A stretch of DNA of 64,000 nucleotides from Myxococcales bacterium (GTDB lineage: Bacteria > Myxococcota_A > UBA9160 > UBA4427). The notes beneath the pieces were generated by a model. The model made no database searches. It worked only from the letters and a program-made list of their open reading frames with translations, and was not told the origin of the DNA. A program made the position numbers and the translations under genes. The stretch is from the NCBI GenBank assembly GCA_012959805.1, contig DUCN01000086.1, positions 4,002 through 68,001 on the forward strand. The letters run 5' to 3'. Positions 2,864 to 64,000 of the stretch are shown in pieces. How positions within the stretch are numbered: position 1 is the first letter of the stretch; the number at the start of each line of letters is the position of its first letter.

Positions 2864-3676
2864 TCAACAGCGATTCGAGGTTTGCCGCGCAGACTCCGAG
2901 CGCGGCTTTCGGCAGACTGCGAGCAGATCGATACTTTTTCCATCTGCGGGACCAATCGGAAAATCATCGACGCTGAGATCGGGGAGCCCCTGCCCTTTCT
3001 GGATTCCCCGACGCACGACGATGGAGAATTGCGCGAAAAGCCAATCGATCAGCTTTCGAGGAAGTCGGTTGCGAAGCCCAAAGGGGTCGAGACGCATGAT
3101 TCGACGGATGCGCGCCAGTCGGTCCTCCTGGTAGCGCGCCGCGTCCGCGCTCATGCCGACACCTAACATCTCGACCTCTTCGAAATGCTGTTCCAAAAGC
3201 TGACAGAGCTCAGCGGATTCGTATTCATGGATATGAAACGGGTTTACGCCGTCCGACATCAAGATGTTGGGCGTCGTCACGAGCGCCGTCCCGTCTGACC
3301 GAACGGCATTGGCGATGGCCTGCATGTAAACGGTGGGATCCTCGAGATGCTCGATGACCTGAAAGCTCACGACGAGATCAAAACTTCGAGGCACGAGCGG
3401 AACACCCGCCAAATCTGCACGCACATAATGAAGGCTATCACGCCGATGTTGGGCATCTGGCGTGATCCGATCCAGCGCCACCACATGGCCCACCGCATCG
3501 GCGATTTCGGCGCTCCCGTATCCGTTGCCACATCCGAGATCGAGGGTTCGACCGTTCTCACGCTGCCCGGCGACTTCGATGGCTCTCAAGTAGGCGGCTC
3601 GATGTCGGGCGAGATCGGGCCCGAATAGGGCATGGTCATCGTCGAGGCGCTCTCCGGTCAGGGTTACTTGGCTCAA
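2864..3676 (-). CDS. Class I SAM-dependent methyltransferase
   Basis: It carries motif I LDLGCGNGYGS followed by VVALD. It overlaps the upstream gene by 4 nt (3673-3676). Plus-strand ORFs across this stretch look like shadow ORFs. Confidence 0.8.
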   Translation of the reverse strand: MSQVTLTGERLDDDHALFGPDLARHRAAYLRAIEVAGQRENGRTLDLGCGNGYGSAEIADAVGHVVALDRITPDAQHRRDSLHYVRADLAGVPLVPRSFDLVVSFQVIEHLEDPTVYMQAIANAVRSDGTALVTTPNILMSDGVNPFHIHEYESAELCQLLEQHFEEVEMLGVGMSADAARYQEDRLARIRRIMRLDPFGLRNRLPRKLIDWLFAQFSIVVRRGIQKGQGLPDLSVDDFPIGPADGKSIDLLAVCRKPRSESARQTSNRC

Positions 3677-4647
3677 TCTCTCGTCTCCCGCGCTGCCGCC
3701 AGCGCCTCACGCGTAAATTCGCCGGCAAAAAGAAGCCCGACACCGGCCCGCATCACAATCAAACCAGCACTGAGCGCCAGATTGCTTGCCAATAGAATTT
3801 CGGGTGATCCCCAATGACGGAACATGAATACGAAGGCGACCTGCCCTGTCCCTAGACCGGCCACCGCGATCGGAAGCGAAGCGACCAGCGAAACGGCGGC
3901 GACGCCGATCACGAGGTCACCCAGCGGGACATGAATATCGAATACCAGAAGTGCGGTTCCACATAACATGATGAACGAGATGACAAATCCCAATCGAAGC
4001 ACGGCCAGAATCGCGAGTCGCGAAATCTCGGTCTCGCGGGCTGCCCGAAAGAGCTCGAGATCCCGCAGACGATCGAGTGGTCCCAGGGAAAAGTTCGCAC
4101 GAAGCAGAGCAAACCCAACCAAGATGGCGGCGACCGCAAGAGCGATGGCAGACGCCTGCAAAGCAATCGTCTGCGTCGAGAGAAGAACGGCGCCAAACGC
4201 CGACAAGAGAAGCAGGAATCCGAGATCGAAGAGTGCGATCAAAATGACGATCCCAGCCGCATTCGAAATCCCGAGATTTCCACGGCGACGTAGCAGATAC
4301 GTGAGTCCCCCAGCACCCAGGGCGTAATTAAGCAGTCCGAGGGGATAACTTGCGGCCTTTATCTTGGCGCACGTCCACTTGTCGAGAGACTGCGAGCTCG
4401 GCGAGGCCAATAGATTCAGCGTCTGCGCTTCGATCCACAAACTCACAGCACCGTAGAGCAGTACTGCCGGAATCATCACTGCCCCGACCCGACCGTCCGC
4501 ATGACTGAGAACTTCCCCGAAGTCGATGCGACTGAGCAGTAGAGCGAAAGCCGCCGCGCTGACGACCACGGGAACGAGCCACTTCGCGAGCTGGCGTGCT
4601 CGACCGCTCCCGCCTGCTTCTCCGGTCTGCGGTTCTAAGGCTGCCAC
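3673..4647 (-). CDS. UPF0104 / lysylphosphatidylglycerol-synthase-TM-region family membrane protein (flippase-like)
   Basis: The 324-aa product is polytopic (about 8 TM helices), with a basic N-terminus followed by WLVPVVVSAAAFALLL. It sits in the position typical of this family, next to GT2 and GT-C genes, and overlaps both neighbours. Confidence 0.6.
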   Translation of the reverse strand: MAALEPQTGEAGGSGRARQLAKWLVPVVVSAAAFALLLSRIDFGEVLSHADGRVGAVMIPAVLLYGAVSLWIEAQTLNLLASPSSQSLDKWTCAKIKAASYPLGLLNYALGAGGLTYLLRRRGNLGISNAAGIVILIALFDLGFLLLLSAFGAVLLSTQTIALQASAIALAVAAILVGFALLRANFSLGPLDRLRDLELFRAARETEISRLAILAVLRLGFVISFIMLCGTALLVFDIHVPLGDLVIGVAAVSLVASLPIAVAGLGTGQVAFVFMFRHWGSPEILLASNLALSAGLIVMRAGVGLLFAGEFTREALAAARETRD

Positions 4648-6023
4648 GAGGTCTCCACTGGGGTCCAGGGAATACCGGGCAATTCATGCTTTTCCAGAAC
4701 GACCCCATAGCTAAAGGTCACGATCACAAGAATCGTGAGTAGGCCAACACAGGTGAATACGCCTTTTGATCGCCAATCGCTGCCTCGAGTCCAATCCGCC
4801 AGAACTTCACTCGCATAGAAGGAGAAGGGGACACACAACCCGAGAAGAAAGCTGCCCTTCAGAACGACGAACCATGGATTGCGCCAAGAGAAAACAAGAT
4901 AGCCTCCAAACGTGGCGATCACGAGTAAGAGCAGGAGAACATCAGGTCCTGGAATCGAATGCAAGACGCGACGAATGCCGCGAAGCAGCCCGACACCGAA
5001 TGCAATGGTCGGCAAGAGACCCAGCACCAGAATTGCAGTCGCTAGCCGCGCAATCGACACACCATCAAGGGGAACGAAATGTCGATGTGCATCGAACCAA
5101 ATCGTCGCATAGGTACTTCCCCAAACCGAATGGATCAGATTCGGGGATAAGAGGTTCGGATCGATGAAGAGCTGCCACGGGAATGACAAGTAGTCGATGA
5201 GGCTACGAGAGCCCGGCGGCATGCGAAACATGACCGAGTGTACTTCGAGGGCATGCGGGTAGAGGTATCCGTACTGCAACCAGTTCCAGGCAAAGAACCA
5301 TCCGCCAACGAGCACTGCTGCTGCCCCAAAAACACCTGGCCTAACAAGTGATGACGCCCAAGATCCGGCGTCACGGGCCGCTCGGAGATCCACCAACAGA
5401 TAGGCGGCTCCCCCAGCGGCGATGACCAGCAGCCCGGTCAACTTCGTCAGCAGAGCCAGTCCTGCAATGCCGCCGAAGAGGCCAGCGCGCATCAACGCCT
5501 TGGGTGTCCTCTCTGGTTCAGCGGTGAGATCGAGACCCACGCCGACCACCACGATGGAGATCAAGGTCGTGACGAGAATCTCCTCCGTCAACATCGCGCT
5601 CATGTAGAGGTGAACGGGCAGGAAGAGCAGCAGCCCTCCAGCGAAAACGGCACGCCGTGAATTCCCCGGGTCCGCGCGCTGAACGAATACGACGGCGGCG
5701 ACAATCCCGAGAAGTCCGAAGCACATACTCGCGAATCGAATCGCGTGGATGGCGGACGCTTTCCCAAGCTCTCCGACCCCACCGAAGATGCGACCGATGG
5801 CCCCTGCCACGTAGTAGAACAATGGGGGATGTGCGGTCGACCACCCGGAATCCGGCGAGGGCAGCGCCCAGGACCGAAGCAGCCCGGAGACATAAGACCA
5901 ATTCCCCTGAGCATCGAACCCCATATCGATCGGATATTGGAAGACGTTGCTCACGCGCATCGCGATGCCGACGAAAATCGTCAAGCCGATCACGATGATC
6001 CATCGCTGCGATAGGGGGGACAT
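4635..6023 (-). CDS. GT-C/PMT_2-like (GT39-type) membrane glycosyltransferase
   Basis: The ORF spans 4635..6083. The likely start is MSPLSQRW at 6023, which overlaps the GT4 stop as TGATG. The first-loop motif is YPIDMGFDAQGNWSYV, followed by HPPLFYY and about 11 TM helices. Confidence 0.6.
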   Translation of the reverse strand: MSPLSQRWIIVIGLTIFVGIAMRVSNVFQYPIDMGFDAQGNWSYVSGLLRSWALPSPDSGWSTAHPPLFYYVAGAIGRIFGGVGELGKASAIHAIRFASMCFGLLGIVAAVVFVQRADPGNSRRAVFAGGLLLFLPVHLYMSAMLTEEILVTTLISIVVVGVGLDLTAEPERTPKALMRAGLFGGIAGLALLTKLTGLLVIAAGGAAYLLVDLRAARDAGSWASSLVRPGVFGAAAVLVGGWFFAWNWLQYGYLYPHALEVHSVMFRMPPGSRSLIDYLSFPWQLFIDPNLLSPNLIHSVWGSTYATIWFDAHRHFVPLDGVSIARLATAILVLGLLPTIAFGVGLLRGIRRVLHSIPGPDVLLLLLVIATFGGYLVFSWRNPWFVVLKGSFLLGLCVPFSFYASEVLADWTRGSDWRSKGVFTCVGLLTILVIVTFSYGVVLEKHELPGIPWTPVETSWQP

Positions 6024-7141
6024 CACTGAAGATTTCGGGCGCGATCGATCGCTTCGCCCATCTCCGTCGCCGCTTGTTCCCAATCGAATTGCCGAGACCA
6101 GGCAAGGGCCTCTCTGGACATACGAAGCGCCAGCGCATCGTCCTCGAGCAAGCGTCCGATCTGCTCAGCAAAAGCATCGACGTCGCCGTAGGGAGCGAGC
6201 AACCCGGTCTGACCGTCACGTACGGAATCCCGGAGCCCCGGCGCGTCACTGGCGACAACAGGCGTTCCCAGTCGATTGGCCTCGATCACGGTCAGCCCCC
6301 AGCCTTCCTTCTCTGAGGCACAAACGCAGACGCGACTTTCGGCAAGCAGCGAATCCCGCTCGTGATCGCTGACGAATCCGGTGAACCGCGTGCGTTCGGC
6401 AAGGCCGAGCTCCTCGGCCAACCTTTCAAGTTCCGGTGTCGCAGAACCGCGGCCAATGATCAGTAGTTCCGCTTCGGGGAAACGTTCGCTGAGTTTCGCC
6501 ATGGCTCGAAGAACGAGATCGACGCGCTTGTAGGGTTCGATCCGACCCACATAGGCGACCCGCGTTGGTCTCAACTGATCGACGTCCACCACCACATCCG
6601 TCGGATCCACGCCGCAGTGGCTCACTTTGATCGAGGCTTCCGGTATCCCGCGCGCCGCTAGATCGTCTCGCGAGCTTTCAGAAATCGTAATGAAGGGCAG
6701 TCTCCGATAAAGGAGCGGGATGAAGCGTTCGAGCAGCCAGACCACCGCCGCGATCGGCCAGGCGACCTGTCGAAAGGCCACCTCTCCGAAGAGATGGTGA
6801 CAAAGCGCCAGAACAGGCACCCCCGAATAGACGGGAGAAAAGAAGGGAACCTTGTTCAGACATTCGACGACGACATCGAATTCATCGCGACGCGTTCGCG
6901 TCGCGCAATACCAGGCCACGCGTGGGTAATAAGAGAGCAGGCTCCCGAGACGACGAACCCGAAGGCCTTCTACGACCTCTTCCGAAGCACCGCCCGAGAA
7001 TCCGGAAACCGCCAATGTCACGTCGTATCCGCGTTCACTGAGACGCCGAAAGACCTCGGCAACATGAAATTCGGCGCCCCCCGTCTTGGGGTGCTTTGGA
7101 TCGCGCTCGTTCAGCACCAGGACGCGGCAGCTCTTGCTCAT
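6023..7141 (-). CDS. Glycosyltransferase family 4 (GT-B, group 1)
   Basis: The N-terminus reads VLVLNERDPKHPKTGGAEFHV. The C-terminal EX7E motif is ASEKEGWGLTVIEANRLGTPVVAS. Confidence 0.85.
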   Translation of the reverse strand: MSKSCRVLVLNERDPKHPKTGGAEFHVAEVFRRLSERGYDVTLAVSGFSGGASEEVVEGLRVRRLGSLLSYYPRVAWYCATRTRRDEFDVVVECLNKVPFFSPVYSGVPVLALCHHLFGEVAFRQVAWPIAAVVWLLERFIPLLYRRLPFITISESSRDDLAARGIPEASIKVSHCGVDPTDVVVDVDQLRPTRVAYVGRIEPYKRVDLVLRAMAKLSERFPEAELLIIGRGSATPELERLAEELGLAERTRFTGFVSDHERDSLLAESRVCVCASEKEGWGLTVIEANRLGTPVVASDAPGLRDSVRDGQTGLLAPYGDVDAFAEQIGRLLEDDALALRMSREALAWSRQFDWEQAATEMGEAIDRARNLQ

Positions 7142-22061: not shown

Positions 22062-24281
22062 ATGACGTTCATGCCGAACTCGAGAATCCTCGCCCTAATC
22101 GCCGTTCTTGGAGCCCTCTTTCTCTCCGGTACCGCGAGCATCGTCAACCAAGTGGTCTGGCAGCGAGGCTTGAAAATTCAGCTCGGGGGCAGCGAAAGCA
22201 TCAGCTCCATGATCGTCGTCCTCGTCTTCATGCTAGGCCTCGGCCTCGGAGCCGCGCTCATGGGCAGCTGGGCACGACGAGTCGATCGCCCACTCCGCAT
22301 CTTTGCATCCATCGAGCTCGCGCTGTGCCTCGTAAATCTCTTGATCGCCGGGCTCTTCGCACTCGACCTCAGTGAATCGATTTACGCAGTGCAGAGGCTC
22401 GCCCTTTCAACCGGACTGCCACTGCGGCTGATCTATGCCCTCGCCGCACTCCTGGTCTTGCTGGTACCCACGGTCCTCATGGGGGCGACGCTCCCCATCG
22501 CATCCGAAACCTGCCAGCGCCAGCTCGGAGCCAGGGAATCGAGCTTGATCACGATCCTCTTCTTTCTCAATACGCTCGGTGCCGTTCTCGGCGCGTTCGG
22601 AAGCAGCTTCGTGCTGCTTCCACTTTTCGGACAGCGTTTCTCTCTCATCATGGCCGCCGCGCTCAATCTCGTGGCAGCAGCGATTCTATTCGGGCTCCAT
22701 CTCTCTTTTCAAAGCCCGAAACCGAACGAATCGACGCCAAGAGCGGCCGCGGCCCAGCGCGGCTGGAGACCAAACCGGGAAGAAATGCTTGGCTTCGGGC
22801 TCGGCTGCGTTTCGCTTGCCTACGAGATGTACCTCTTTCGGCTGATGGCGCTGGCTCATGAACCGCTTCCCGTTACCTTCGCCATCACGCTCTGCTTCTA
22901 CCTTCTATTCTGGTCTGTGGGTGTCTTTTTCTCGTCGAGATTTCCGAAACGCCTAACAGTAATATTTTCACTGACTGCCCTGATGGTGGCGACAACGCCC
23001 TACGTCTACGAGTTGGATCGGTTCTCCGCCCACTTCTCAATGGCCTTTGGCGGGCTGCTCTATTTCATTCCCTGCATCGGCTTCGGCCTGCTCTATGGCG
23101 TGCTCGTTTCTCGATCGAATCGCGACTGGGGAAGCGATGTGGGTCGGTACTATGCCTACAACACCCTCGGTTCCTGCCTCGGCATCCTCGCGATGACGCT
23201 GGTCGGATACGAATTGCCACTGCATTACGGCGCGTTCGTTATCACGGTTGGGATTCTCGTTTCGCTCTTCTATTGGCTCGCCTCATCGCAAGTGCGAGAA
23301 CCGGCTTCCCGCATCCGATGGCGAGTCGCCATGCTCACATCCTGCGTCGCCCTCGTTGGCCTCATCATGTCCGGGATGTCCATTCCCTATTCGCTTTCTT
23401 CAACCCACGGAATCCGAACCTATTGGGGTCGTGATGGAGTCGTCGAGGTCTTCGAGGACGGCGACGTCTATATTGATGGGCTCTGGCATACCCACCTCTC
23501 GCCCGGCGGCCAACACATCGGCAAGTCCTATACATGGATGATGGCGGTTTCCGCCCTGCTGGCTCGAGACGACGAACCGGCCCAGGATATTCTTGTGATC
23601 GGGAATGGCGTCGGCCTCACCGCTTCAACCTTTGCGGGGCAACCAGAGGCTCGGATCGATGCCTATGAAATCAATCGCACTCTCGAAGAAGTGCTTCGCG
23701 ACTACGAGGCTGAAACTCTCGGTGCCGGGCGAAATCCGCAGATCAAGATTGCTTGGATGGATGCCCGCAGCGGCCTCGCCCTCAACACGAAGCAATACGA
23801 CATCATCGTCTCGGCCCCGCTCTACTTACGCCAAGCCGGCAGTAGCACGCTTCTCTCGAAAGAATATTTCGAGCTTCTCGGACGGCGGCTGAAGCCAAAG
23901 GGCGTCGTCGCCGTGTATGCACACGAGGGCACACCCGCCCAGTCTACGCTTGTCCGACGCACGATCGCATCGGTCTTCGACTATCAACAGACTTTCGACA
24001 AACATGTCGTCCTGATCGCCTCGAATGATCCAATTCGAATCGACCGCGAGGCCCTGGCGAAGCTTGAGAATCGACCTGGCGTACTCGCAGCCCAACTCCG
24101 AAACTACGGTGCTACACGGGCGGGTGGCCGGCGTGCTGATCTGTTGGCCCGACTCGACCGACCCAGCGCTCCCGTCCGCTTGGGGAAATTCCTGATCACG
24201 GACGATCATCCATTAGTTGAGTACATATGGGCGGCGCGCCGATTGGTGGACATCGAGTCTGAGAACGAGCCGAGCGACTAA
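22062..24281 (+). CDS. Fused MFS-like membrane domain / spermidine synthase-like protein
   Basis: The product is 739 aa. The N-terminal ~450 aa are polytopic (about 12 TM helices, beginning ILALIAVLGALFLSGTASIVNQVVWQR). The C-terminal part resembles an aminopropyltransferase (DILVIGNGVGLTAS, YDIIVSAPLY, LKPKGVVAVYA). Confidence 0.75.
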   Translation: MTFMPNSRILALIAVLGALFLSGTASIVNQVVWQRGLKIQLGGSESISSMIVVLVFMLGLGLGAALMGSWARRVDRPLRIFASIELALCLVNLLIAGLFALDLSESIYAVQRLALSTGLPLRLIYALAALLVLLVPTVLMGATLPIASETCQRQLGARESSLITILFFLNTLGAVLGAFGSSFVLLPLFGQRFSLIMAAALNLVAAAILFGLHLSFQSPKPNESTPRAAAAQRGWRPNREEMLGFGLGCVSLAYEMYLFRLMALAHEPLPVTFAITLCFYLLFWSVGVFFSSRFPKRLTVIFSLTALMVATTPYVYELDRFSAHFSMAFGGLLYFIPCIGFGLLYGVLVSRSNRDWGSDVGRYYAYNTLGSCLGILAMTLVGYELPLHYGAFVITVGILVSLFYWLASSQVREPASRIRWRVAMLTSCVALVGLIMSGMSIPYSLSSTHGIRTYWGRDGVVEVFEDGDVYIDGLWHTHLSPGGQHIGKSYTWMMAVSALLARDDEPAQDILVIGNGVGLTASTFAGQPEARIDAYEINRTLEEVLRDYEAETLGAGRNPQIKIAWMDARSGLALNTKQYDIIVSAPLYLRQAGSSTLLSKEYFELLGRRLKPKGVVAVYAHEGTPAQSTLVRRTIASVFDYQQTFDKHVVLIASNDPIRIDREALAKLENRPGVLAAQLRNYGATRAGGRRADLLARLDRPSAPVRLGKFLITDDHPLVEYIWAARRLVDIESENEPSD

Positions 24282-26582: not shown

Positions 26583-26612
26583 TTGACATCGGTAGTGCCA
26601 AAACACTAACAT
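26583..26612 (+). promoter_or_regulatory. Putative sigma70-type promoter for the selenoprotein gene
   Basis: TTGACA (26583-26588), an 18-nt spacer, then TAACAT (26607-26612). This lies about 50 nt upstream of ATG 26662, which has a GGGAG RBS. A second ATTGACAT box sits at 26519-26526. The call rests on the sequence pattern only. Confidence 0.3.
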
Positions 26613-26661
26613 CCTTTGCACAAGTCCAACAAGATGAACGCTCGAAGGTTGGGAGTCGCGC

Positions 26662-27888
26662 ATGACGATTGAACGGGATCACCACGGATTCGACGCACCC
26701 GCGCCGCTAGGCCATCCGGGACGAGCGGGCCTTCCGCCAGGCCATTCGACTGGCCCCGAAATTGGAGAGCGACTCCCGGATTTCCGACTTCCGGATACGC
26801 ATGGCGAGCTTGTCGACTTCCATGAGAGTCGCGGCCGAGCGAAAGCCGTCGTGGTCTTCTATCGATCGGCGGTCTGGTGACCCCCTTGCTGGACGCAGCT
26901 CGGTGAGCTGCGCGACGCCTTTGATAAGTTTCAAGCTGCGGGAATCGAACTTTACGCGATCTCATATGATGATCAGCACGTCCTCTCGGAGTTCAGCAAG
27001 AAGCAGAACATTCCCTACCGACTGCTCTCCGACATCGATTCCGAGGTCATCCGCAATTACGGAATCTTGAATGATCAGGTCGGAGCCGGTGACGCCTTTC
27101 TCGAAGGCATCCCCTACCCAGGCGTGTATGTGACGGACGAAGAGGGAATCGTCGTCGCCAAGTTCTTTCATGACACCTATAAGGTTCGCGACAGTCCTGA
27201 AATGTTGATCGATGCAGCGCTCGGGCGACTCGAAATCTCAGACCAGGAGCCGAGCTTTCGGGGCGGCGATGAAGAAGTTCGGATTTCTGTCTTCGTACAC
27301 GGCGGCCGAGGCAGCATTCGTCAGGGAATTCGTCGACAACTCATCGTTCGCTTCGATCTTGGCCCGGGAATGCATCTCTATGGAGAGCCAGTTCCGGACG
27401 GAATGGTTCCGACGAAGATCGAGATCGAGGCCCCGCCTGGTCTCGTCCTCGAAGCTCCGATCTATCCGCCGACAGAAACGCTTCGACTCACGAACATGGA
27501 TGTCGACCTCCACGTCTGGACGGGGGCCGTCGATATTGTCGTGCCCTTCTATGCGACAGGTATTCTTGTCAGCGAAACACGTCCTCTGGACGAGACCACA
27601 ATCGAACTCGAGGTCAACATTCGGTATCAAGCCTGTGACGACGATACGTGTCTATTGCCCAAAACCGAGAAAGTCGTCCTGAGCATCGATCTCGATGTCA
27701 TTGATGTACCCGCGCTCGGGCCGCATCTAGGACACGGTCAGCGAGAAGCGAACTTCCGTGGCGCCCCTCATATGACGCGCTTGATTCAGCGGAAACTCCG
27801 CAAACATCCGCTTGGCCTCGCACGTTATCTCTTGAAGTCCATCAGACTTGAACTGGCGGCCAAGTGGCGAAGCGTAACGGGGAAATAG
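26662..27888 (+). CDS. Candidate selenoprotein: peroxiredoxin-like (AhpC/TSA-redoxin, UxxC) domain fused to a DsbD N-terminal-like domain, with in-frame TGA (Sec) at 26878-26880
   Basis: Tracked ORFs 26662..26880 and 27067..27888 share one frame. The 186 nt between them hold no stop and simply no start codon. Read-through gives ...LPDFRLPDTHGELVDFHESRGRAKAVVVFYRSAVW[U]PPCWTQLGELRDAFDKFQAAGIELYAISYDD..., in which the TGA sits at the first Cys of the WCPxC motif. The C-terminal half carries the DsbD-N motif IRYQACDDDTCLLP. Confidence 0.7.
26894..26912 (+). promoter_or_regulatory. Putative bacterial SECIS-like hairpin
   Basis: A perfect 8-bp stem, CGCAGCTC-GGT-GAGCTGCG, starts 13 nt after the TGA. 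The G/U-containing apical loop lies about 22-24 nt downstream of the UGA. Confidence 0.5.
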
Positions 27889-27981: not shown

Positions 27982-28368
27982 ATGGACAAGACCGCAGGGA
28001 TAGATCACGAAACCGGAGCTCGGCCAATCGAAGAATGGGTGGATTTCGAGCGCGTCTGCTGCAGCGACCTGAACTGGGACCTCAATCGATCACAAGCGAA
28101 CGAGCTGAGCCTCACCGTGTCTGGTATTTCGCCGAATAGCCTCGTCTTCGCAGATAACGAAGGCGACAGCATCAACCCTCAACCCAGCTTCGGTATCGCG
28201 AAAAAACTGGCTCAATCAATTGATCTGGGCACAACTGCGGCGGCCATTCTCTGCTGCGTGGCACCGATGGCCCTCGCCGCTGTGGCGGGCGTAGCGGTCG
28301 CCGCGCCTCTCGCCCGCCTCGACAATCCGCTCACGATCGCAGCCGCATCGCTGCGTGGCTCTGGCTGA
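27982..28368 (+). CDS. Hypothetical small protein with two vicinal Cys pairs and a C-terminal MerT/MerC-like CCxxP transmembrane helix
   Basis: It has a strong Shine-Dalgarno sequence. The 128-aa product has ERVCCSD (C26-C27) in the soluble N-terminal part and TTAAAILCCVAPMALAAVAGVAVAAP (C91-C92) in a hydrophobic helix. I recognise no family with confidence. Confidence 0.5.
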   Translation: MDKTAGIDHETGARPIEEWVDFERVCCSDLNWDLNRSQANELSLTVSGISPNSLVFADNEGDSINPQPSFGIAKKLAQSIDLGTTAAAILCCVAPMALAAVAGVAVAAPLARLDNPLTIAAASLRGSG

Positions 28369-30254: not shown

Positions 30255-30704
30255 ATGGCTCCCTATGCTCGCCAACAATTCCAATGGAATCGAAAGGAGA
30301 GCACATTGTCCGAAGACGATCGCTACGAACGCGGCGCGAAGATGCTCGAGAAAGTCTACGCCGGAGATGTCCAGGCGCCACCTAAGGGCACCATGGCCTT
30401 CTCCGACCTGATGGTCGAGAACCTGTTCGCCGAGGTGTGGACCCGAGACGTGCTTTCGATCCGGGACCGGAGATTGATTCTGTTAGGCGTGATCGGAGCG
30501 CTCGGCGAGAAAGACATTTTCGCCATTCAGGCCAAAGCCACCCTCAAGAATGAAGAACTCACGCCTGAACAGCTCCGTGAAGTGGTCATCGTTCTGGCGA
30601 ACTATGCGGGCTATCCCCGCGCCGCCGGCGTCCTCGGCGTGGTCGAACAGAAGATTGCCGAGTTCACACGAGAACAGAGAACCGAGACCGACTCGCCTTC
30701 ATGA
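30255..30704 (+). CDS. Carboxymuconolactone decarboxylase (CMD/AhpD-like) family protein
   Basis: The pattern DRYERGAKMLEKVYAG...EVWTRDVLSIRDRRLILLGVIGALG...LREVVIVLANYAGYPRA is the CMD family pattern. The start is uncertain: TTG 30234, ATG 30255, or TTG 30306 with an AAGGAGA RBS. Confidence 0.75.
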   Translation: MAPYARQQFQWNRKESTLSEDDRYERGAKMLEKVYAGDVQAPPKGTMAFSDLMVENLFAEVWTRDVLSIRDRRLILLGVIGALGEKDIFAIQAKATLKNEELTPEQLREVVIVLANYAGYPRAAGVLGVVEQKIAEFTREQRTETDSPS

Positions 30705-56812: not shown

Positions 56813-58525
56813 TCAACTCGGACCGGGGCACGTCTCGCAGAAAAGCAGGTCAAAGATCGGCAGCTCTTCGACGACACGATATCTCGATCGCAGTCCGTCG
56901 CGGAGAACGGTCCAGGTGTCGAATATCAACGAGCCATCAAGCGGAACGCGACGGATCAGGGCGTACCGTGGACCCGTTTCGAGGAAGCGATCAACCAGCG
57001 CGGCAGAGGCGGCCCGTGTCCATGTATTCATAAAAAGGGCTGCGTCACCGGTCCAGGGCCTGGCCCCCGCTTCCAGATAGATGAATGTCTTGAAGGGGTC
57101 GAGCACAGCGACGCGTTCGCCCTGGCTCTCAAGCGCTCTCACCTTATGGATCGCCGCCTGCAGCGGACCAACGAGCTGAAGGTCTCTGCTCTTGTCCAGA
57201 AAGATCTCGCGTCGGTCCGGAATCAAATACTCCCCCCGCGAGACTTCCTGGGTCCTATCCAGATTCCATCGGTTCGGATACGCGACGTAGGTGGGACTTG
57301 AAAAGAGGAGCGCGACAGTCGTGATCAGGATCAACACAGGTGCCGCGCGAGCGATCGGTGCAGATCCGGAATGCCGGCGAGAAGCTTCTCCGCGGGAGTC
57401 GAGATAGCGCTTGAGTTCGAGCGTGAGAATAATTGCGATCGACAGACCGACGAGTCGAATACGAATGGCCTGGGAATTCCAAACGAAGAGTAAGAGACGA
57501 CCCGCTCCATAAAACCCGACACATCCCAGGAGCAGAGAAGTCGGATCGAGGCGCCTGTGCAACGCTTTCATGGCGGTCTCGCTTACAGCATAAAGGCAAA
57601 TCGCAAAGGACCCGAGTGCGAAGAACAGATGGTCGGATTGCTGAGCCACGAATCGCGAAAAGAGGAGAGAGGATACGCTCACCGCGTTCAACAGGCCGCC
57701 GAGCCAGCTCGCGAGAACTGCCGCAGGCTCGTAGAAAAAGCGCCCGTGCGTGGAGATGACCAATCCGATTGCCAGAACGAGAACGAAAGCGATCGCGCTC
57801 TGCCAGAGCGTGGCGACCGGTCGCAGAGGCAGTGCGAGGGAGCGTGCGGTGGATGACCATTCGTCACGGGTCCGACTCCCGAAGAGAAGTGCGCACACCC
57901 AGTAGACGATGTAGGTCCCGATGAGCATCAATCCCGTTTCGGTTTCGAAATAGAGTCCCAGACCCGCGAGTCCGGCTGCCGCGACGGAAAATACCGGTCG
58001 ACCGCTGCGTCCGTGCATCAGCAATGCCAGAAAGAACAGCGCATCGAATGGGGCACGCAGACTTAGCATCGATGGCCATTGCCAATTGCTCAGCCCCGTT
58101 CCCAATTCATCGAAGAGTGGCGAGAAGAATCCGAGCCAGAGCGAAAATACGGTGCCGGCCAGCGCAAGGCTGCGCGACGACACCGCCACACGCATCAAGG
58201 CATAGACGGAGACGGCATAGATCCCGCAGAAAAACGCAGCGAACTCAATCGCGCCCTGGTGAGACAACGGCCACACACCCGAGATCGAACTCAAGAGCGT
58301 CGGCCAACCCAATCCGTAGGGCGCGTAGACGTCGAGAGACAGCGCCATACCATGCTGGTGGGCGAGTGCCTGTGCGATCATAAAATGATCCCAGTGATAG
58401 AAGCGATCCCATGCGAAAACCCAACCGGCGACGATCGACGGAACCGGCAAGTAGATCAGCGAGATGAGCGCGGCGCCAATCAGCCCGTCCAGCGCGTAGC
58501 CGTAACCATTATTCGACGACCTCAA
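56813..58525 (-). CDS. Large polytopic membrane protein with a soluble C-terminal domain, GT-C-like candidate glycosyltransferase
   Basis: The product is 570 aa with about 12 hydrophobic helices over ~400 aa. The acidic/aromatic first loop is WVFAWDRFYHWDHF. The soluble tail is ~170 aa. Its operon position matches that of ArnT or serotype-specific Gtr enzymes. I recognise no family with confidence. Confidence 0.45.
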   Translation of the reverse strand: MRSSNNGYGYALDGLIGAALISLIYLPVPSIVAGWVFAWDRFYHWDHFMIAQALAHQHGMALSLDVYAPYGLGWPTLLSSISGVWPLSHQGAIEFAAFFCGIYAVSVYALMRVAVSSRSLALAGTVFSLWLGFFSPLFDELGTGLSNWQWPSMLSLRAPFDALFFLALLMHGRSGRPVFSVAAAGLAGLGLYFETETGLMLIGTYIVYWVCALLFGSRTRDEWSSTARSLALPLRPVATLWQSAIAFVLVLAIGLVISTHGRFFYEPAAVLASWLGGLLNAVSVSSLLFSRFVAQQSDHLFFALGSFAICLYAVSETAMKALHRRLDPTSLLLGCVGFYGAGRLLLFVWNSQAIRIRLVGLSIAIILTLELKRYLDSRGEASRRHSGSAPIARAAPVLILITTVALLFSSPTYVAYPNRWNLDRTQEVSRGEYLIPDRREIFLDKSRDLQLVGPLQAAIHKVRALESQGERVAVLDPFKTFIYLEAGARPWTGDAALFMNTWTRAASAALVDRFLETGPRYALIRRVPLDGSLIFDTWTVLRDGLRSRYRVVEELPIFDLLFCETCPGPS

Positions 58526-59148: not shown

Positions 59149-59317
59149 AACATCCTGGACAAGGCCGACTCTTCCCTAAGAGACAGCTTTGGCTTCTGGC
59201 TGGGTCGCGTTCTGGGCCAGCTACTTCTCTTTTCTTCGTTCCGTCGTTCTTCTCCTGATCTTCGATCGTTCGGTTAGCGCCGCCTACTGTCTTCCGAAGT
59301 CGACAGCAACCGCCCCG

Positions 59318-60019
59318 CTACAGCTTCGTGCTCGCACCGAAGCTGCCCGTCATGTGTTCGCTCCACGCACTCAGCAACGGCACCGCATCGGGGAGGCCAA
59401 GCGAGCGCAGTTCTTCAGCGATGGGATGATCGCCCAGCTCGAGAACCACTCCCGCACCGCCGGGGATCGTCTGCTCACCACGCCCACCACGTGTGAAGAC
59501 GTTGCTATGTGGGATGCCGTCAATCAGCGTGTACCCGACCGCCGATTCGTCGGGCGTCTCGCCATCGCCGCCCCGCGGCACCGTAAGCGTAAGCACGTGT
59601 CGCCCGTCCATTATAAGCCTGCACGTGGCGCGATCGTCCGCATACGCGAAGTCGATGTCCTCGACACTTTTCGGGAAGCCCCAGATCCGGCAGCCCGCCT
59701 CGCACGTGAAGCTCTGATTGACGGGGAGCTTGTAGATGTAGGTGCCTACATCGGCGTCCGGTCGACCGGCCGGCCTAACGAAGAACACGATTCCGACCTC
59801 GTCGTAGTCTCCGAGATCGTTATCGCGATAGTCGACGATGACGAGCGTGAGCTGGGTCTGGCCGGGCGCAGCCTCGACGGCCTCGAATGCGTCCGGAATC
59901 AGCTCCTGAGTCCCGACGCGATCGACCATATACATCACGCTGCCCGTCGACGCGTCGCGGACGACTGCCGGCAGGTCGACGGCGCGCCCCTGGATCTCGT
60001 ACTGCTCGCTCTTGGCCAT
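59318..60019 (-). CDS. Acetoacetate decarboxylase (ADC) family protein
   Basis: The ORF extends to 60277, but ATG 60019 follows a GGGGAGG RBS. It gives MAKSEQYEIQGRAVDLPAVVRDASTGSVMYMV...LVIVDYRDNDLGDYDEVGIVFFV...GCRIWGFPK, an ADC-family beta-cone pattern. The opposite-strand ORF 59189..60310 is judged a shadow ORF. Confidence 0.7.
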   Translation of the reverse strand: MAKSEQYEIQGRAVDLPAVVRDASTGSVMYMVDRVGTQELIPDAFEAVEAAPGQTQLTLVIVDYRDNDLGDYDEVGIVFFVRPAGRPDADVGTYIYKLPVNQSFTCEAGCRIWGFPKSVEDIDFAYADDRATCRLIMDGRHVLTLTVPRGGDGETPDESAVGYTLIDGIPHSNVFTRGGRGEQTIPGGAGVVLELGDHPIAEELRSLGLPDAVPLLSAWSEHMTGSFGASTKL

Positions 60020-60406
60020 CACATTACCTCCCCTTGGTCTCGTTGGAGTCAGCGGGACTTTAACCCGTCGCCAAACGGCGCAAGCGCCCGCCAAGAAAGA
60101 AGCCTTCCGACTGAAGACTTGTCCCACGCTTCCCAACCCCGCCTGCAAGCGGGCTGCGATTCGACGCGCAGAGCCGCCCCGCGTTCGGATCAACCGTCGA
60201 CGATCGACTGCGCCTCGGATGCGATCGGTCAAGGTCGCGGACCGGGACGTCATTTCGGTGCGGGGCAGCGTCTCCACTCATTTCGCGCTTGTCGACAGCT
60301 ATGGGTCTAACCGGATATTGCGAAAACGGAGCTCGAAGCGCCTATCCCCCATCCGTTTCAACACGGTCGCAAACTCCATCCCATCTGGCTTCGATCGACA
60401 AAGGGG

Positions 60407-62463: not shown

Positions 62464-63000
62464 TCACGCTCGCAGATCGCGAATCGCGCGTAGCAATTCG
62501 CGACGTGCGCGCTTCGTCTTCCTTGCTGCCGGATCCTGTTGCGCGCTTCGCGTCAACATCCGGAGGCGCTGCCGATCAGCGTGGGGGTAGTCTGTGATCA
62601 GTCCCTCGACCGCAACATCGCCCTCTTCCACGAGACGAGTGAGCCAGTTTTCTGTGACTTGCTCGTGGCGGACTCCATCGCGCTGATCTCTATTCAACAA
62701 CTCGAGGCGTTGCTGGATCGCTTCGTGATCCTCCGCGCGCAAGATCTGACCGATCAATCGATTCTGGCGACCGCGGGACTTGGGCTTCAGGTTCTGACTC
62801 ACGTCGATCTCTTCTCGAAGCCGCTCCGGAAGTTCGAGACGATCCAAGTCACGCAGAGAGAGCCGAGTGAGCCGCAAGCCCAGTTTGTTAACGGCATTGG
62901 CGGCGCGCGTCTGCTCTGTCCGCGACGGACGCGAATCTGCGAGCCTCGGCGACTGCTCGGCCGGCGCTTCGTCTTCCGGAATGTCGCCGGGCGAAATCAT
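62464..63000 (-). CDS. yjgA: Ribosome-associated protein YjgA (DUF615 / DarP family)
   Basis: The product is 178 aa and contains PSRTEQTRAANAVNKLGLRLTRLSLRDLDRLELPERLREEIDVSQNLKPKSRGRQNRLIGQILR...AIQQRLE, which matches the YjgA pattern. Its ATG overlaps the upstream stop as ATGA. Confidence 0.8.
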   Translation of the reverse strand: MISPGDIPEDEAPAEQSPRLADSRPSRTEQTRAANAVNKLGLRLTRLSLRDLDRLELPERLREEIDVSQNLKPKSRGRQNRLIGQILRAEDHEAIQQRLELLNRDQRDGVRHEQVTENWLTRLVEEGDVAVEGLITDYPHADRQRLRMLTRSAQQDPAARKTKRARRELLRAIRDLRA

Positions 63001-64000
63001 CGAGGCGAATTGGCCTTGCGAGGGCGCCTGCGTTTCCGGCGCGACGGACGACCGCTTCCAGCCCCCTCACCAGCAGCCGGAGTGCTGTCTGAACGAGACC
63101 GAGGCTTTGCGGCGGATCGCTTTGCCTCGCCCCGCTGGCCTGCCTGTCCCGGCTTCCCTCCGACTCCGCTTTCGCGTGCGCGCTCACCATCCTCAGCGCG
63201 GGAATCGGAACCGCTCTCCGCCCGCTTGGGTTTCGCCTGGGCGCTGGCCCCGCTGCGCGAGCGGCCACGTCGATTCCGCTTCCGGCTCTTCGGGGCGGCC
63301 GGCCGTTGCGCATCGGTGGTCGTCGCCTCGCTCGGCGAAGCTGACTCCGGCACATTCCGGGCCCCCTCCCGTGCGCTCCCGGCACCACGGCGCCGGCGGC
63401 GGCGTTTCGCGGCGGCATCGCTCTTCGCGACGGAATCGGCCGCGGGGCCCGACGGCGCAACGCGCTCGGCTGCAGTCGTCCCGCGGCGACGCACCGGACG
63501 CGCGCCCCGCTTCTTTGCTTCGGGCTTTCTTGCCGATGGCCGAGGCTTCAACTCGCCAGCAAAATCGACGACTCTGCGAAGCGGATCCGGCGCCCGAGCG
63601 GCGACCATCGGCGACCCATCCAGGTCCTCGAAATCGTCTTCGTCTCCCTCGCCTCGGCGCATCTGATTGTCACGGCTGGCATCCTCGATGAGCGCCATCA
63701 CCTCTTCGGTATCGGCCTTGGCGTTCGGCGCCTCATACCGACCGGTCAATTCGGTGTCAGGTGCGAGACGATTCGCCTGGAATAACGACCAGATTTCTTC
63801 GCCATAGGGCAGCACGGGCTCGTCAGGGGCGAAGCGCGCGAGGAAACTGTGAAGGTTCTCCACATCCCGGAGTAGGAGCTTCTGGCTGTTCGGGTTGTGA
63901 GTGGGCTCCACCGACTGCGGGAAGTCGATCACGACAGGTCCCTGATCGCTCATCAACACGTTGAAAACCGAGAGGTCGCCATGAATGACGCCCGCACAGA
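62997..64000 (-). CDS. RIO-type serine protein kinase with a long Arg/Lys-rich C-terminal tail (N-terminus outside the window)
   Basis: The frame is open to the window end. The catalytic loop and metal-binding motifs read ...AGVIHGDLSVFNVLMSDQGPVVIDFPQSVEPTHNP...LLLRDVENLHSFL. A ~215-aa highly basic, low-complexity tail follows (KRRRRRRG, SRKRNRRGRSRSG, RRKRRRPRK). Confidence 0.8.
   Translation of the reverse strand, partial: CAGVIHGDLSVFNVLMSDQGPVVIDFPQSVEPTHNPNSQKLLLRDVENLHSFLARFAPDEPVLPYGEEIWSLFQANRLAPDTELTGRYEAPNAKADTEEVMALIEDASRDNQMRRGEGDEDDFEDLDGSPMVAARAPDPLRRVVDFAGELKPRPSARKPEAKKRGARPVRRRGTTAAERVAPSGPAADSVAKSDAAAKRRRRRRGAGSAREGARNVPESASPSEATTTDAQRPAAPKSRKRNRRGRSRSGASAQAKPKRAESGSDSRAEDGERARESGVGGKPGQAGQRGEAKRSAAKPRSRSDSTPAAGEGAGSGRPSRRKRRRPRKANSPR

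What the first reader, a model, noticed from the sequence alone, without database searches (positions are those of the whole stretch)
26662..27888. Candidate selenoprotein: peroxiredoxin-like/DsbD-N fusion with UGA at the CxxC nucleophile and a SECIS-like hairpin
The ORF track reports two pieces, 26662..26880 and 27067..27888. Both start coordinates are 1 mod 3, so they share a frame. The 186 nt between them contain no stop, only no start codon. The single interruption is TGA 26878-26880.

The read-through reads ...GERLPDFRLPDTHGELVDFHESRGRAKAVVVFYRSAVW-[TGA]-PPCWTQLGELRDAFDKFQAAGIELYAISYDDQHV.... In AhpC/TSA-redoxin thioredoxin-fold proteins this position is the WCPxC active site. The TGA therefore replaces the attacking Cys, giving UxxC, which is the classic Sec/Cys exchange position.

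Thirteen nt downstream lies a perfect 8-bp GC-rich hairpin, CGCAGCTC-GGT-GAGCTGCG (26894-26912). Its G/U apical loop is about 22-24 nt from the UGA, inside the spacing described for bacterial SECIS elements.

The downstream half is a DsbD N-terminal-like domain (IRYQACDDDTCLLP). Without recoding it would have no start codon or RBS of its own except a TTG at 27067. No sel genes or tRNA-Sec are visible in this window.
Basis: partly seen in the sequence, partly recalled or inferred. Interest (0 to 1): 0.8.

Follow-up and report, generated by a model that had tools for sequence, protein, structure and literature searches.

The report
Selenoprotein gene: Prx-like/nDsbD-like fusion
The apparent stop codon at 26878 is almost certainly a selenocysteine codon inside one 408-codon redox-enzyme gene; the family was predicted to be a selenoprotein in 2008 ocean metagenome work, yet public databases still annotate it as truncated fragments.

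Summary
Window 26662-27888 is one gene with a single in-frame TGA at codon 73. The TGA sits at the first position of a W-U-P-P-C redox motif in a thioredoxin-fold (AhpC/TSA) domain, which is fused to an nDsbD-like domain.

In 80 species-level genomes from at least eight phyla, the aligned codon is TGA in 79 and TGC in 1. Both flanks evolve as coding sequence in the same frame.

The hairpin 13 nt downstream is conserved. Two base pairs covary strongly, synonymous sites in the stem are suppressed, and the first loop base is an invariant G. This fits a bacterial SECIS.

In three Luminiphilus genomes, tRNA-Sec lies 2-3 kb upstream of the orthologue; in the complete one it is directly preceded by the 3' end of selB.

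The family is not new. Near-identical reads are in the "Prx-like 1" set of Zhang & Gladyshev's 2008 GOS selenoproteome. Three things were not described in the papers I could read:
- the nDsbD-like fusion;
- the near-fixation of Sec, with no Cys form in the window's clade;
- the split into a cytoplasmic and an exported clade.

Public databases and NCBIfam still miss the gene. Sec machinery in the window's own organism could not be checked. Verdict: real, well supported, new member of a known kind, moderate interest.

The parts
26583..26612 (+). Promoter-like site (TTGACA-18 nt-TAACAT) about 50 nt upstream of the start codon
   Evidence: 10 of 12 consensus matches. This is a consensus match only, not proof of function.
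26651..26655 (+). Shine-Dalgarno-like GGGAG, 6 nt before ATG 26662
   Evidence: read directly from the sequence. No comparable site precedes TTG 27067.
26662..27888 (+). Single recoded coding sequence: 408 codons (Sec at codon 73) plus TAG stop at 27886-27888
   Evidence: tblastn matches residues 1 to ~404 in one frame in orthologous loci, with codon periodicity on both sides of the TGA.
26761..27159 (+). Thioredoxin-fold AhpC/TSA (Prx-like, TlpA/ResA/BCP-like) domain, residues 34-166
   Evidence: PF00578, E 2.4e-31; BCP 2cx3, E 1e-14; ResA about 1e-7; Bcp/ResA structural matches.
26878..26880 (+). UGA = selenocysteine codon 73, first position of the W-U-P-P-C motif
   Evidence: TGA in 79 of 80 species-level loci, TGC in L057. 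TGA is otherwise an ordinary stop in this window.
26887..26889 (+). TGC, Cys76, the resolving Cys of the UxxC motif
   Evidence: columns 10-11 (T, G) are invariant and column 12 is C or T in all 77 sequences, so the codon is always Cys.
26894..26912 (+). SECIS-like hairpin: stem 26894-26901 / 26905-26912, loop GGU 26902-26904. It overlaps codons T-Q-L-G-E-L-R.
   Evidence: 89.9% of cells are paired against 28-42% in slid controls. Covarying pairs: GC 53 / CG 20, and GC 56 / AU 12 / GU 6. The first loop G is invariant. Stem third-position diversity is 0.25 against 0.61 in the flanks.
27328..27678 (+). nDsbD-like (DsbD alpha, immunoglobulin-like) domain, residues 223-339
   Evidence: PF11412 in 108 of 108 family members; Foldseek top hits 3pfu, 1jpe, 1l6p, 1vrs, 6dps, 6c29; hhalign to E. 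coli nDsbD.
27634..27651 (+). Invariant Cys325-x4-Cys330 pair (TGT 27634-27636, TGT 27649-27651) in the motif RYQACDDDTCLLP
   Evidence: invariant columns. One search aligns the pair with catalytic Cys103/Cys109 of E. coli nDsbD.
27724..27885 (+). Conserved basic C-terminal tail (GHGQRE...PHMxRL..RK.R.NPLGL...LE.AA), predicted helical hairpin, present only in the window's clade
   Evidence: helices at model residues 295-308 and 310-333, which are protein residues 368-381 and 383-406.

Best explanation
Window 26662-27888 is one gene for a 408-residue selenoprotein.

How it is decoded. The ribosome reads UGA 26878-26880 as selenocysteine. The hairpin 13 nt downstream (26894-26912) acts as a bacterial SECIS that recruits SelB carrying Sec-tRNA(Sec).

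What it encodes. An N-terminal thioredoxin-fold domain has the redox centre W-U73-P-P-C76, of the TlpA/ResA/BCP type. It is fused to an nDsbD-like immunoglobulin-fold domain that carries a second redox pair, C325/C330. A basic helical tail follows.

Inferred chemistry. The U73 selenolate attacks an oxidised substrate (a disulfide, a sulfenic acid or possibly a peroxide). C76 resolves the adduct into an intramolecular selenylsulfide. The tethered C325/C330 dithiol exchanges reducing equivalents with that centre. This mirrors the DsbD alpha to gamma/CcmG relay, but within one polypeptide.

Location. The window's clade lacks a signal peptide, so it probably acts in the cytoplasm, perhaps at the membrane through the tail.

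Shown: gene continuity, conservation of the TGA, the Sec/Cys pair, hairpin covariation, both domain identities, the Cys-pair alignment, and selB/selC linkage in relatives. Inferred: actual Sec insertion, direction of electron flow, substrate and location.
For: - **Gene continuity.** The AhpC/TSA match spans the TGA. All 120 best database homologues start at query residue 77 or later, as expected if gene callers stop at the same codon. A second search with the N-terminal half gave the same picture.
- **Conserved TGA.** It is TGA in 79 of 80 species-level genomes, including Myxococcota, Gamma- and Alphaproteobacteria, Spirochaetaceae, Actinomycetota, Chloroflexi, Acidobacteriota and Armatimonadetes. 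It is TGC in L057. WCPxC forms occur among distant relatives.
- **Not an assembly error.** Five independent assemblies carry the TGA.
- **Coding on both sides.** Third-position diversity is 2-2.5 times that of positions 1 and 2 on both sides, in the same frame, with no other stop.
- **Hairpin.** 89.9% of cells are paired against 28-42% in slid controls. The covariation score is 0.203 against 0.06 or less, and 0 of 500 shuffles reach it. Pair 18-34 is GC 53 / CG 20. Pair 21-31 is GC 56 / AU 12 / GU 6 / UA 1. The Glu codon is GAG in 77 of 77, stem synonymous diversity is 0.25 against 0.61 in the flanks, and the loop is always G-[G/U]-N. The stem is broken in the Cys form.
- **Sec machinery in relatives.** tRNA-Sec lies 2-3 kb upstream in L035, L038 and L040, and the SelB C-terminus is adjacent in L035.
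- **Standard code.** TGA is an ordinary stop for 26 of 57 window ORFs.
- **C-terminal domain.** Pfam DsbD_N matches 108 of 108 members. Foldseek's top hits are nDsbD structures. C325/C330 align with C103/C109.
- **Prior prediction.** The same family appears as predicted selenoproteins in GOS Dataset S1 under 'Prx-like 1' (PMC2398784).
Against: - No selA, selB, selC or selD was found in the 64-kb window. Only about 20 larger ORFs plus the +/-10 kb around the gene were scanned. The rest of the source organism's genome could not be searched.
- No Rfam model recognises the hairpin.
- On this single sequence the fold is not exceptional (z -1.34).
- The hairpin overlaps the conserved peptide Q-L-x-E-L, so part of its conservation is protein-level. 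The synonymous-site and covariation tests address this but do not remove phylogenetic non-independence.
- There is no protein-level evidence of Sec.
- The structure model lacks residues 1-73, so the geometry between the two redox centres was not measured.
- No conserved gene neighbour points to a substrate.
Confidence: 0.93

Rival explanations
1. Pseudogene or sequencing/assembly error: a formerly Cys-encoding gene (TGC/TGT) inactivated by a point change to TGA.
For: A single-base change from TGC or TGT gives TGA. Disrupted copies of this gene do exist elsewhere: an IS insertion in L041, a frameshift in L043, and a deletion variant, P0144.
Against: TGA sits at the same codon in 79 of 80 species-level genomes and in five independent assemblies of this locus. 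Both flanks are under purifying selection in frame, with no other stop. Hairpin covariation would not be maintained in a pseudogene.
Confidence: 0.01
2. Two genuine genes: a 72-aa peptide ending at TGA, and a separate 273-aa protein initiated at TTG 27067. This is how databases annotate it (P0001).
For: Gene callers in NCBI, JGI, ENA and Logan all produce this split.
Against: The split cuts the thioredoxin fold in half and removes its active site. The 186 nt between the pieces are conserved as coding sequence. No Shine-Dalgarno precedes TTG 27067. The called start positions differ arbitrarily between orthologues: residues 77, 83, 95, 107, 129 and 136.
Confidence: 0.02
3. UGA is decoded, but not as Sec: either genome-wide reassignment to Trp/Gly, or near-cognate read-through inserting Trp or Cys.
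For: Two database entries show W at this position (WWPFC: P0269, P0333), which shows that some pipelines read it as Trp.
Against: TGA terminates 26 of 57 ORFs in this window, including 12 of the 33 that are at least 250 aa. The hosts span many phyla with the standard code. The position is the nucleophile of a CxxC-type motif and pairs with Cys in homologues, not Trp. A conserved structured element with an invariant loop G at SECIS spacing accompanies the TGA and is lost in the Cys form. selB and selC are adjacent in Luminiphilus.
Confidence: 0.03
4. It is a selenoprotein, but it works as a true peroxidase (Sec-peroxiredoxin) rather than a thiol-disulfide oxidoreductase. The nDsbD-like domain would be its dedicated reductant.
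For: The best sequence matches are BCP/PrxQ-type peroxidases (NF006960; 2cx3). An nDsbD-like to TlpA to peroxiredoxin electron path exists in the Caulobacter envelope (PMC3322552, abstract seen). Selenolates react fast with peroxides (general knowledge).
Against: The Prx signature PxxxT/SxxC is replaced by W-U-P-x-C. U occupies the Thr/Ser position, not the peroxidatic position. All NCBIfam peroxidase models score far below their cut-offs, for example 67 against 140 bits. The literature classes this type as thioredoxin-like UxxC (PMC1088965).
Confidence: 0.25

Closest known systems
'Prx-like 1' / 'Prx-like thiol:disulfide oxidoreductase' predicted selenoproteins (Kryukov & Gladyshev 2004; Zhang et al. 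2005, PMC1088965; Zhang & Gladyshev 2008, PMC2398784; 2026 review, PMC13188914)
   Same: - pfam00578 domain with a UxxC motif and a bacterial SECIS-like hairpin.
- Marine abundance.
- Near-identical sequences are in GOS Dataset S1 under '#Prx-like 1', for example JCVI_READ_1095899084694 and JCVI_READ_1947008.
   Different: - That category is broad (225 Sec sequences against 2,740 Cys homologues) and was described as a single domain.
- The subfamily here has a fused nDsbD-like domain and, in its marine clade, a basic helical tail.
- It is almost always Sec: 79 to 1 in species representatives.
- The paper's fusion section does not list this fusion.
E. coli DsbD relay: nDsbD (alpha) with cDsbD (gamma) or CcmG (PDB 1VRS, 1Z5Y, 1L6P)
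   Same: - An immunoglobulin-fold domain with a YQ[AG]C...C..P Cys pair aligned to C103/C109, plus an F-Y cap-loop motif.
- It is partnered with a thioredoxin-fold CxxC-type domain of the TlpA/CcmG/ResA kind.
   Different: - The two partners are fused in one soluble polypeptide.
- There is no transmembrane beta domain.
- The nucleophile is Sec.
- The window's clade has no signal peptide, so it is probably cytoplasmic rather than periplasmic.
- The spacing is Cx4C rather than Cx5C.
ScsB to TlpA to PprX envelope peroxide-reduction pathway (Cho et al. 2012, PMC3322552)
   Same: An nDsbD-like domain supplies electrons to a TlpA-like thioredoxin-fold protein. The ScsB N-terminal domain (6c29) is among the structural matches.
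   Different: Those are separate Cys proteins in the periplasm. Here there is a single Sec-containing fusion. Only the distant clade B carries export signals.
PrxU, the Sec-containing peroxiredoxin of Eubacterium acidaminophilum (NF040737)
   Same: An AhpC/TSA-fold selenoprotein.
   Different: PrxU has TxxU, with Sec at the peroxidatic position. Here the motif is UxxC. The NF040737 score is 27 bits against a cut-off of 270.

Membership tests
Bacterial selenoprotein gene (UGA-Sec recoding) | In-frame UGA conserved at the same codon in orthologues, with coding conservation on both sides | tested here: met
   79 of 80 species-level loci have TGA; codon periodicity on both sides, no other stops.
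Bacterial selenoprotein gene (UGA-Sec recoding) | Cys-containing homologues align Cys with the UGA | tested here: met
   L057, TGC, DWCPYC; P0208, P0215, P0281, P0294, P0301, P0303, P0307 and P0319 carry WCPxC.
Bacterial selenoprotein gene (UGA-Sec recoding) | [quoted passage not shown] | tested here: met
   The stem is 6-8 bp and the loop 3-5 nt. The first loop base is G in 77 of 77, at 22 nt after the UGA. Two pairs show compensatory changes. bSECISearch itself was not available, and no Rfam model matches.
Bacterial selenoprotein gene (UGA-Sec recoding) | Host encodes selA, selB, selC and selD | tested here: inconclusive
In orthologue-bearing Luminiphilus genomes, tRNA-Sec is adjacent in L035, L038 and L040; the SelB C-terminus was checked, and found adjacent, only in L035. 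selA and selD were not examined.
Bacterial selenoprotein gene (UGA-Sec recoding) | Selenium actually incorporated at the position | not testable with these tools
   Needs 75Se labelling or mass spectrometry.
'Prx-like 1' selenoprotein family (Zhang & Gladyshev 2008) | pfam00578 domain with a UxxC motif, and sequence membership in the published set | tested here: met
   (PF00578, E 2.4e-31); 13 'RSAVWU' sequences under '#Prx-like 1', including one whose N-terminus is nearly identical to the window protein's.
Peroxiredoxin proper (AhpC/BCP/PrxQ) | PxxxT/SxxC active-site signature with a peroxidatic Cys, and a score above the curated family cut-offs | tested here: not met
   U73 aligns with the Ser of BCP's F-S-P-V-C and C76 with the peroxidatic Cys; there is no Thr/Ser; all peroxidase models fall far below cut-off (66.9 against 140; 42.9 against 260; 27.4 against 270).
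nDsbD / Pfam DsbD_N (PF11412) | Profile match above the gathering threshold, and an immunoglobulin-like fold | tested here: met
   33.9 bits against 25; 108 of 108 members; pLDDT 86; top Foldseek hits are nDsbD; TM-score normalised to the target 0.6-0.65.
nDsbD / Pfam DsbD_N (PF11412) | Catalytic Cys pair equivalent to C103/C109, and a cap-loop aromatic motif | tested here: met
   hhalign aligns C325/C330 with C103/C109 and PFY with EFYG (E 2e-4, probability 45%). The cysteines are invariant in 108 sequences. The spacing is one residue shorter.
DsbD/ScsB/CcdA electron-transport system | Transmembrane beta domain and periplasmic location | tested here: not met
   the window clade has no hydrophobic segment or signal peptide (maximum 15-residue hydropathy below 1). 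No TM domain appears in the 408-aa protein. No conserved neighbouring gene was found.

The most novel reading that the evidence does not exclude
The marine, window-type clade is a self-contained, obligately selenium-dependent redox relay. A Sec-bearing thioredoxin-fold domain and a tethered nDsbD-like domain would pass electrons intramolecularly in the cytoplasm or at the inner face of the membrane, anchored by the basic helical tail. This would be a cytoplasmic, single-chain reinvention of the periplasmic DsbD alpha/gamma relay. Sec cannot be replaced in it, since no Cys form was found in this clade among 5.8 billion proteins. This would be a functional architecture not described for either parent family.
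Probability: 0.3. Interest if true: 0.55.

Novelty: new member of a known kind. Interest (0 to 1): 0.35.

Why it matters
**Annotation.** The gene is mis-annotated across public resources, and the 273-aa product P0001 is one example. Every close homologue returned by the two word-indexed searches of a 5.8-billion-protein collection is a truncated fragment. Only a few distant uninterrupted (Cys-type) relatives turned up in the exhaustive representative search. No NCBIfam model exists that would let PGAP call the Sec. A dedicated model plus the conserved SECIS would repair many entries (651 hits at E <= 0.001).

**Biology.** This subfamily is unusual among thiol-oxidoreductase selenoproteins because Sec is nearly fixed (79 to 1 in species representatives). 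It is also fused to an nDsbD-like domain, which suggests a built-in electron partner.

**Testability.** The gene occurs in cultured strains (Luminiphilus sp. nBUS_07 and HTCC2080), next to tRNA-Sec in both and to selB in nBUS_07. That makes it an accessible system for asking why some redox enzymes cannot give up selenium.

Tried and rejected
- **Rfam.** Searches at gathering threshold on the whole window and at E <= 10 on 26850-26960 found no SECIS or tRNA-Sec model, only two chance-level matches.
- **Full-length structure prediction.** Only residues 74-408 were modelled. Model coordinates are not exposed, so the distance between the two redox centres was not measured.
[quoted passage not shown] It has no CxxC/CxxU motif and no in-frame TGA, so I rejected it.
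- **Other selenoprotein genes in the window.** A scan for in-frame TGA with redox-like context gave only noise in this 59.5% GC sequence.
- **Conserved gene neighbourhood.** Across 80 loci nothing beyond the gene itself recurs; the second-largest cluster is antisense ORF artefacts.
- **Sequence searches against PDB.** phmmer with the C-terminal domain found nothing, and the family profile hit only BCP/ResA. nDsbD was reached only through Pfam, Foldseek and hhalign.
- **P0144.** It looked like a full-length form but is an internal deletion lacking the active site.
- **Literature.** A search for HTCC2080 plus selenoproteome gave nothing.
Full report
**1.

The window has an ATG ORF at 26662..26880 and a TTG ORF at 27067..27888 in the same frame. 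The only stop between 26662 and 27888 is TGA 26878-26880. Read through, it gives a 408-residue protein with the motif ...VVVFYRSAVW-[UGA]-PPCWTQLGEL....

Pfam AhpC-TSA matches residues 34-166 (E 2.4e-31). The TGA at codon 73 therefore lies inside one domain, not between two genes. Pfam DsbD_N matches residues 223-339 (E 3.7e-8, above the gathering score).

The hairpin CGCAGCTC-GGT-GAGCTGCG is at 26894-26912, 13 nt after the TGA. On this single sequence the local fold is not statistically unusual (z = -1.34), so its meaning had to come from comparison.

A GGGAG Shine-Dalgarno lies 6 nt before ATG 26662, and a promoter-like site sits at 26583-26612. Nothing similar precedes TTG 27067.

**2. The stop is conserved across the family**

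A search of about 5.8 billion proteins returned 651 hits. All of the best 120 begin at query residue 77 or later, at scattered positions (77, 83, 95, 107, 129, 136). That is the pattern expected when gene callers stop at the same in-frame codon and pick whatever start follows. A second search with the N-terminal half gave the same picture. The one apparent full-length hit, P0144, is an internal deletion lacking the active site.

The window's own locus occurs in five independent assemblies, all with the TGA.

Scanning one genome per species retrieved 80 loci. They come from:
- Myxococcota;
- Gammaproteobacteria, including the cultured Luminiphilus sp. nBUS_07 and HTCC2080;
- Alphaproteobacteria;
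- Spirochaetaceae;
- Actinomycetota;
- Chloroflexi;
- Acidobacteriota;
- Armatimonadetes.

The codon aligned with the window's TGA is TGA in 79 loci and TGC in one (L057, motif DWCPYC).

The 38 codons upstream and the 38 downstream show the same periodicity in the same frame, with no other in-frame stop in 64 loci:

| Clade | Side | Diversity at codon positions 1 / 2 / 3 |
|---|---|---|
| A | upstream | 0.26 / 0.23 / 0.60 |
| A | downstream | 0.20 / 0.17 / 0.48 |

This excludes a pseudogene, a sequencing error and a two-gene arrangement. TGA is an ordinary terminator for 26 of 57 ORFs in the window, which excludes a reassigned genetic code.

**3. The hairpin behaves like a SECIS**

In a gapless alignment of 77 distinct Sec loci (A2), the named stem forms standard pairs in 89.9% of cells, against 28-42% when the 3' partner is slid by 1-3 columns. 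The covariation score is 0.203 against 0.06 or less for the slid versions, and 0 of 500 shuffles reach it.

Two pairs switch by compensatory change:
- columns 18-34: GC 53, CG 20, UG 1, unpaired 3;
- columns 21-31: GC 56, AU 12, GU 6, UA 1, unpaired 1.

The hairpin overlaps the conserved peptide Q-L-x-E-L, so I checked synonymous sites. Third positions in the stem have mean diversity 0.25, against 0.61 for flanking third positions. The Glu codon is GAG in 77 of 77. Every sequence forms at least 6 of the 8 pairs. The loop is always G-[G/U]-N.

[quoted passage not shown] That description is met, with the G 22 nt after the UGA. In the Cys form (L057) the sequence is CAATTGATAGAGATG and the stem is broken.

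No Rfam model matches. bSECISearch was not available.

**4. Sec machinery**

None was found in the 64-kb window. Only the larger ORFs and the +/-10 kb around the gene were scanned, so this says nothing either way. The rest of the source genome could not be searched.

In three Luminiphilus genomes, ARAGORN finds tRNA-Sec (anticodon TCA) 2-3 kb upstream of the orthologue: L035, L038 and L040. In the complete genome (L035) the ORF directly before it is the SelB C-terminus (SelB-wing_3, E 6.5e-11). A second UxxC Prx-like candidate selenoprotein (FFRAHW*PYC) lies just downstream on the other strand.

**5. What the protein is**

*N-terminal domain.* It is a thioredoxin-fold domain closest to BCP/PrxQ and ResA/TlpA. 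In the alignment to BCP, U73 replaces the Ser/Thr of the Prx T/SxxC signature and C76 aligns with the peroxidatic Cys. The centre is therefore a thioredoxin-like UxxC, as the literature describes for 'Prx-like' selenoproteins.

*C-terminal domain.* It is a genuine nDsbD-like domain, on four lines of evidence:
- all 108 family members match PF11412;
- an AlphaFold2 model of residues 74-408 is confident (pLDDT 86, pTM 0.80);
- its best structural matches are E. coli and Neisseria nDsbD and the ScsB N-terminal domain;
- hhalign against the K-12 DsbD sequence aligns the invariant C325/C330 with catalytic C103/C109, and P-F-Y with the E-F-Y-G cap loop.

*Two clades*. The window belongs to a marine clade with these features:
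- no signal peptide;
- a conserved N-terminal extension (ERDxxGFDAPAPLGHPGRAGLP);
- a basic C-terminal tail, modelled as a helical hairpin.

A distant clade, mostly Acidobacteriota, has signal peptides and no tail. The Cys forms are found only in that distant clade.

No gene neighbour is conserved across the 80 loci.

**6. Likely mechanism**

*Shown:* one coding sequence with a conserved UGA, a covarying hairpin at SECIS spacing, a Sec/Cys pair, two redox centres in two identified folds, and selB/selC linkage in relatives.

*Inferred:*
- SelB with Sec-tRNA(Sec) binds the hairpin and inserts Sec at codon 73.
- The U73 selenolate attacks an oxidised substrate, and C76 resolves it to a selenylsulfide.
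- The tethered C325/C330 pair exchanges electrons with that centre, like nDsbD with cDsbD or CcmG (PDB 1VRS, 1Z5Y).

The direction of flow, the substrate and the upstream reductant are unknown. A peroxidase role remains possible (about 0.25). ScsB, TlpA and PprX offer a precedent for an nDsbD-like to Trx-fold to peroxiredoxin path (PMC3322552).

**7. Comparison with what is known, and novelty**

UxxC 'Prx-like' selenoproteins have been known from computational work since 2004-2005.

GOS Dataset S1 (Zhang & Gladyshev 2008) lists this very family under '#Prx-like 1'. One example is JCVI_READ_1095899084694, MVVERDHHGFDAPAPLGHPGRASLPEGHSTGPEIGERLPDF...FFRSAVWUPPCWTQLGELRDA. Another is JCVI_READ_1947008, which runs into the C-terminal domain. 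So the central claim is not new.

Not described in the papers I could read:
- the nDsbD-like fusion, which is absent from that paper's fusion section;
- the near-fixation of Sec in this subfamily;
- the two clades;
- the selB-selC linkage.

No NCBIfam model reaches its cut-off, and databases still hold only truncated ORFs.

**8. Verdict**

This is a real, very well supported selenoprotein gene and a new member of a known kind. It has practical annotation value and a moderately interesting, untested two-centre architecture. Confidence in Sec recoding is about 0.93. Interest is 0.35.

Noticed in passing
L035 153-798 (also L038 939-1032, L040 46-139): In Luminiphilus genomes the 3' end of selB (SelB-wing_3, checked in L035 only) and tRNA-Sec lie 2-3 kb upstream of the orthologue. 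This forms a small Sec-related neighbourhood.
   Followed up: partly
L035 4285-5088, minus strand (6 loci in all, about 1.4 kb downstream of the orthologue): A second candidate selenoprotein: a Prx-like protein with hydrophobic N-terminal segments and an in-frame TGA in ...KFFRAHW*PYCVGELRRLEEL.... It is convergent with the orthologue.
   Followed up: partly
L041 1825-3000: In a Halioglobus MAG the gene is split by a 374-aa transposase-like ORF on the opposite strand. The insertion lies inside the SECIS region, at a CTAG created by the Halieaceae hairpin variant (CAGCTAGGTGAGTTG). This is probably an IS-inactivated copy.
   Followed up: partly
L043 around 3217-3270; protein P0144: L043 has an insertion of about 13 nt and a frameshift inside the hairpin. 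P0144 (925-bp contig) is an internal deletion removing residues ~43-82. Both are occasional broken or misassembled copies.
   Followed up: no
L055-L085 and L057; proteins P0208-P0319: A distant clade, mostly Acidobacteriota/Bryobacterales, carries N-terminal signal-peptide-like segments and lacks the basic tail. That implies exported Sec-containing versions. All uninterrupted WCPxC (Cys) forms belong to this clade.
   Followed up: partly
Proteins P0269, P0333, P0310: Database entries show W (WWPFC) or S (WSPYC) at the Sec position. The W forms are probably TGA translated as Trp by gene calling with genetic code 4.
   Followed up: no
window 26683-26725 (residues 8-22): The conserved N-terminal extension HGFDAPAPLGHPGR resembles the first residues of mature E. 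coli nDsbD (GLFDAPGRSQ). It could be coincidence, or a piece of the nDsbD-like domain supplied from the N-terminus. Not tested.
   Followed up: no
window 30306-30704: A CMD/AhpD-family gene lies 2.4 kb downstream. [quoted passage not shown] This one has no CxxC/CxxU motif and no in-frame TGA.
   Followed up: yes
window 22062-24281, 27982-28368, 4635-6083, 56813-58525, 59189-60310, 62539-63666: Several sizeable ORFs (128-739 aa) have no Pfam match at E <= 0.001. The 128-aa ORF directly downstream of the selenoprotein gene is not conserved next to it in other genomes.
   Followed up: no
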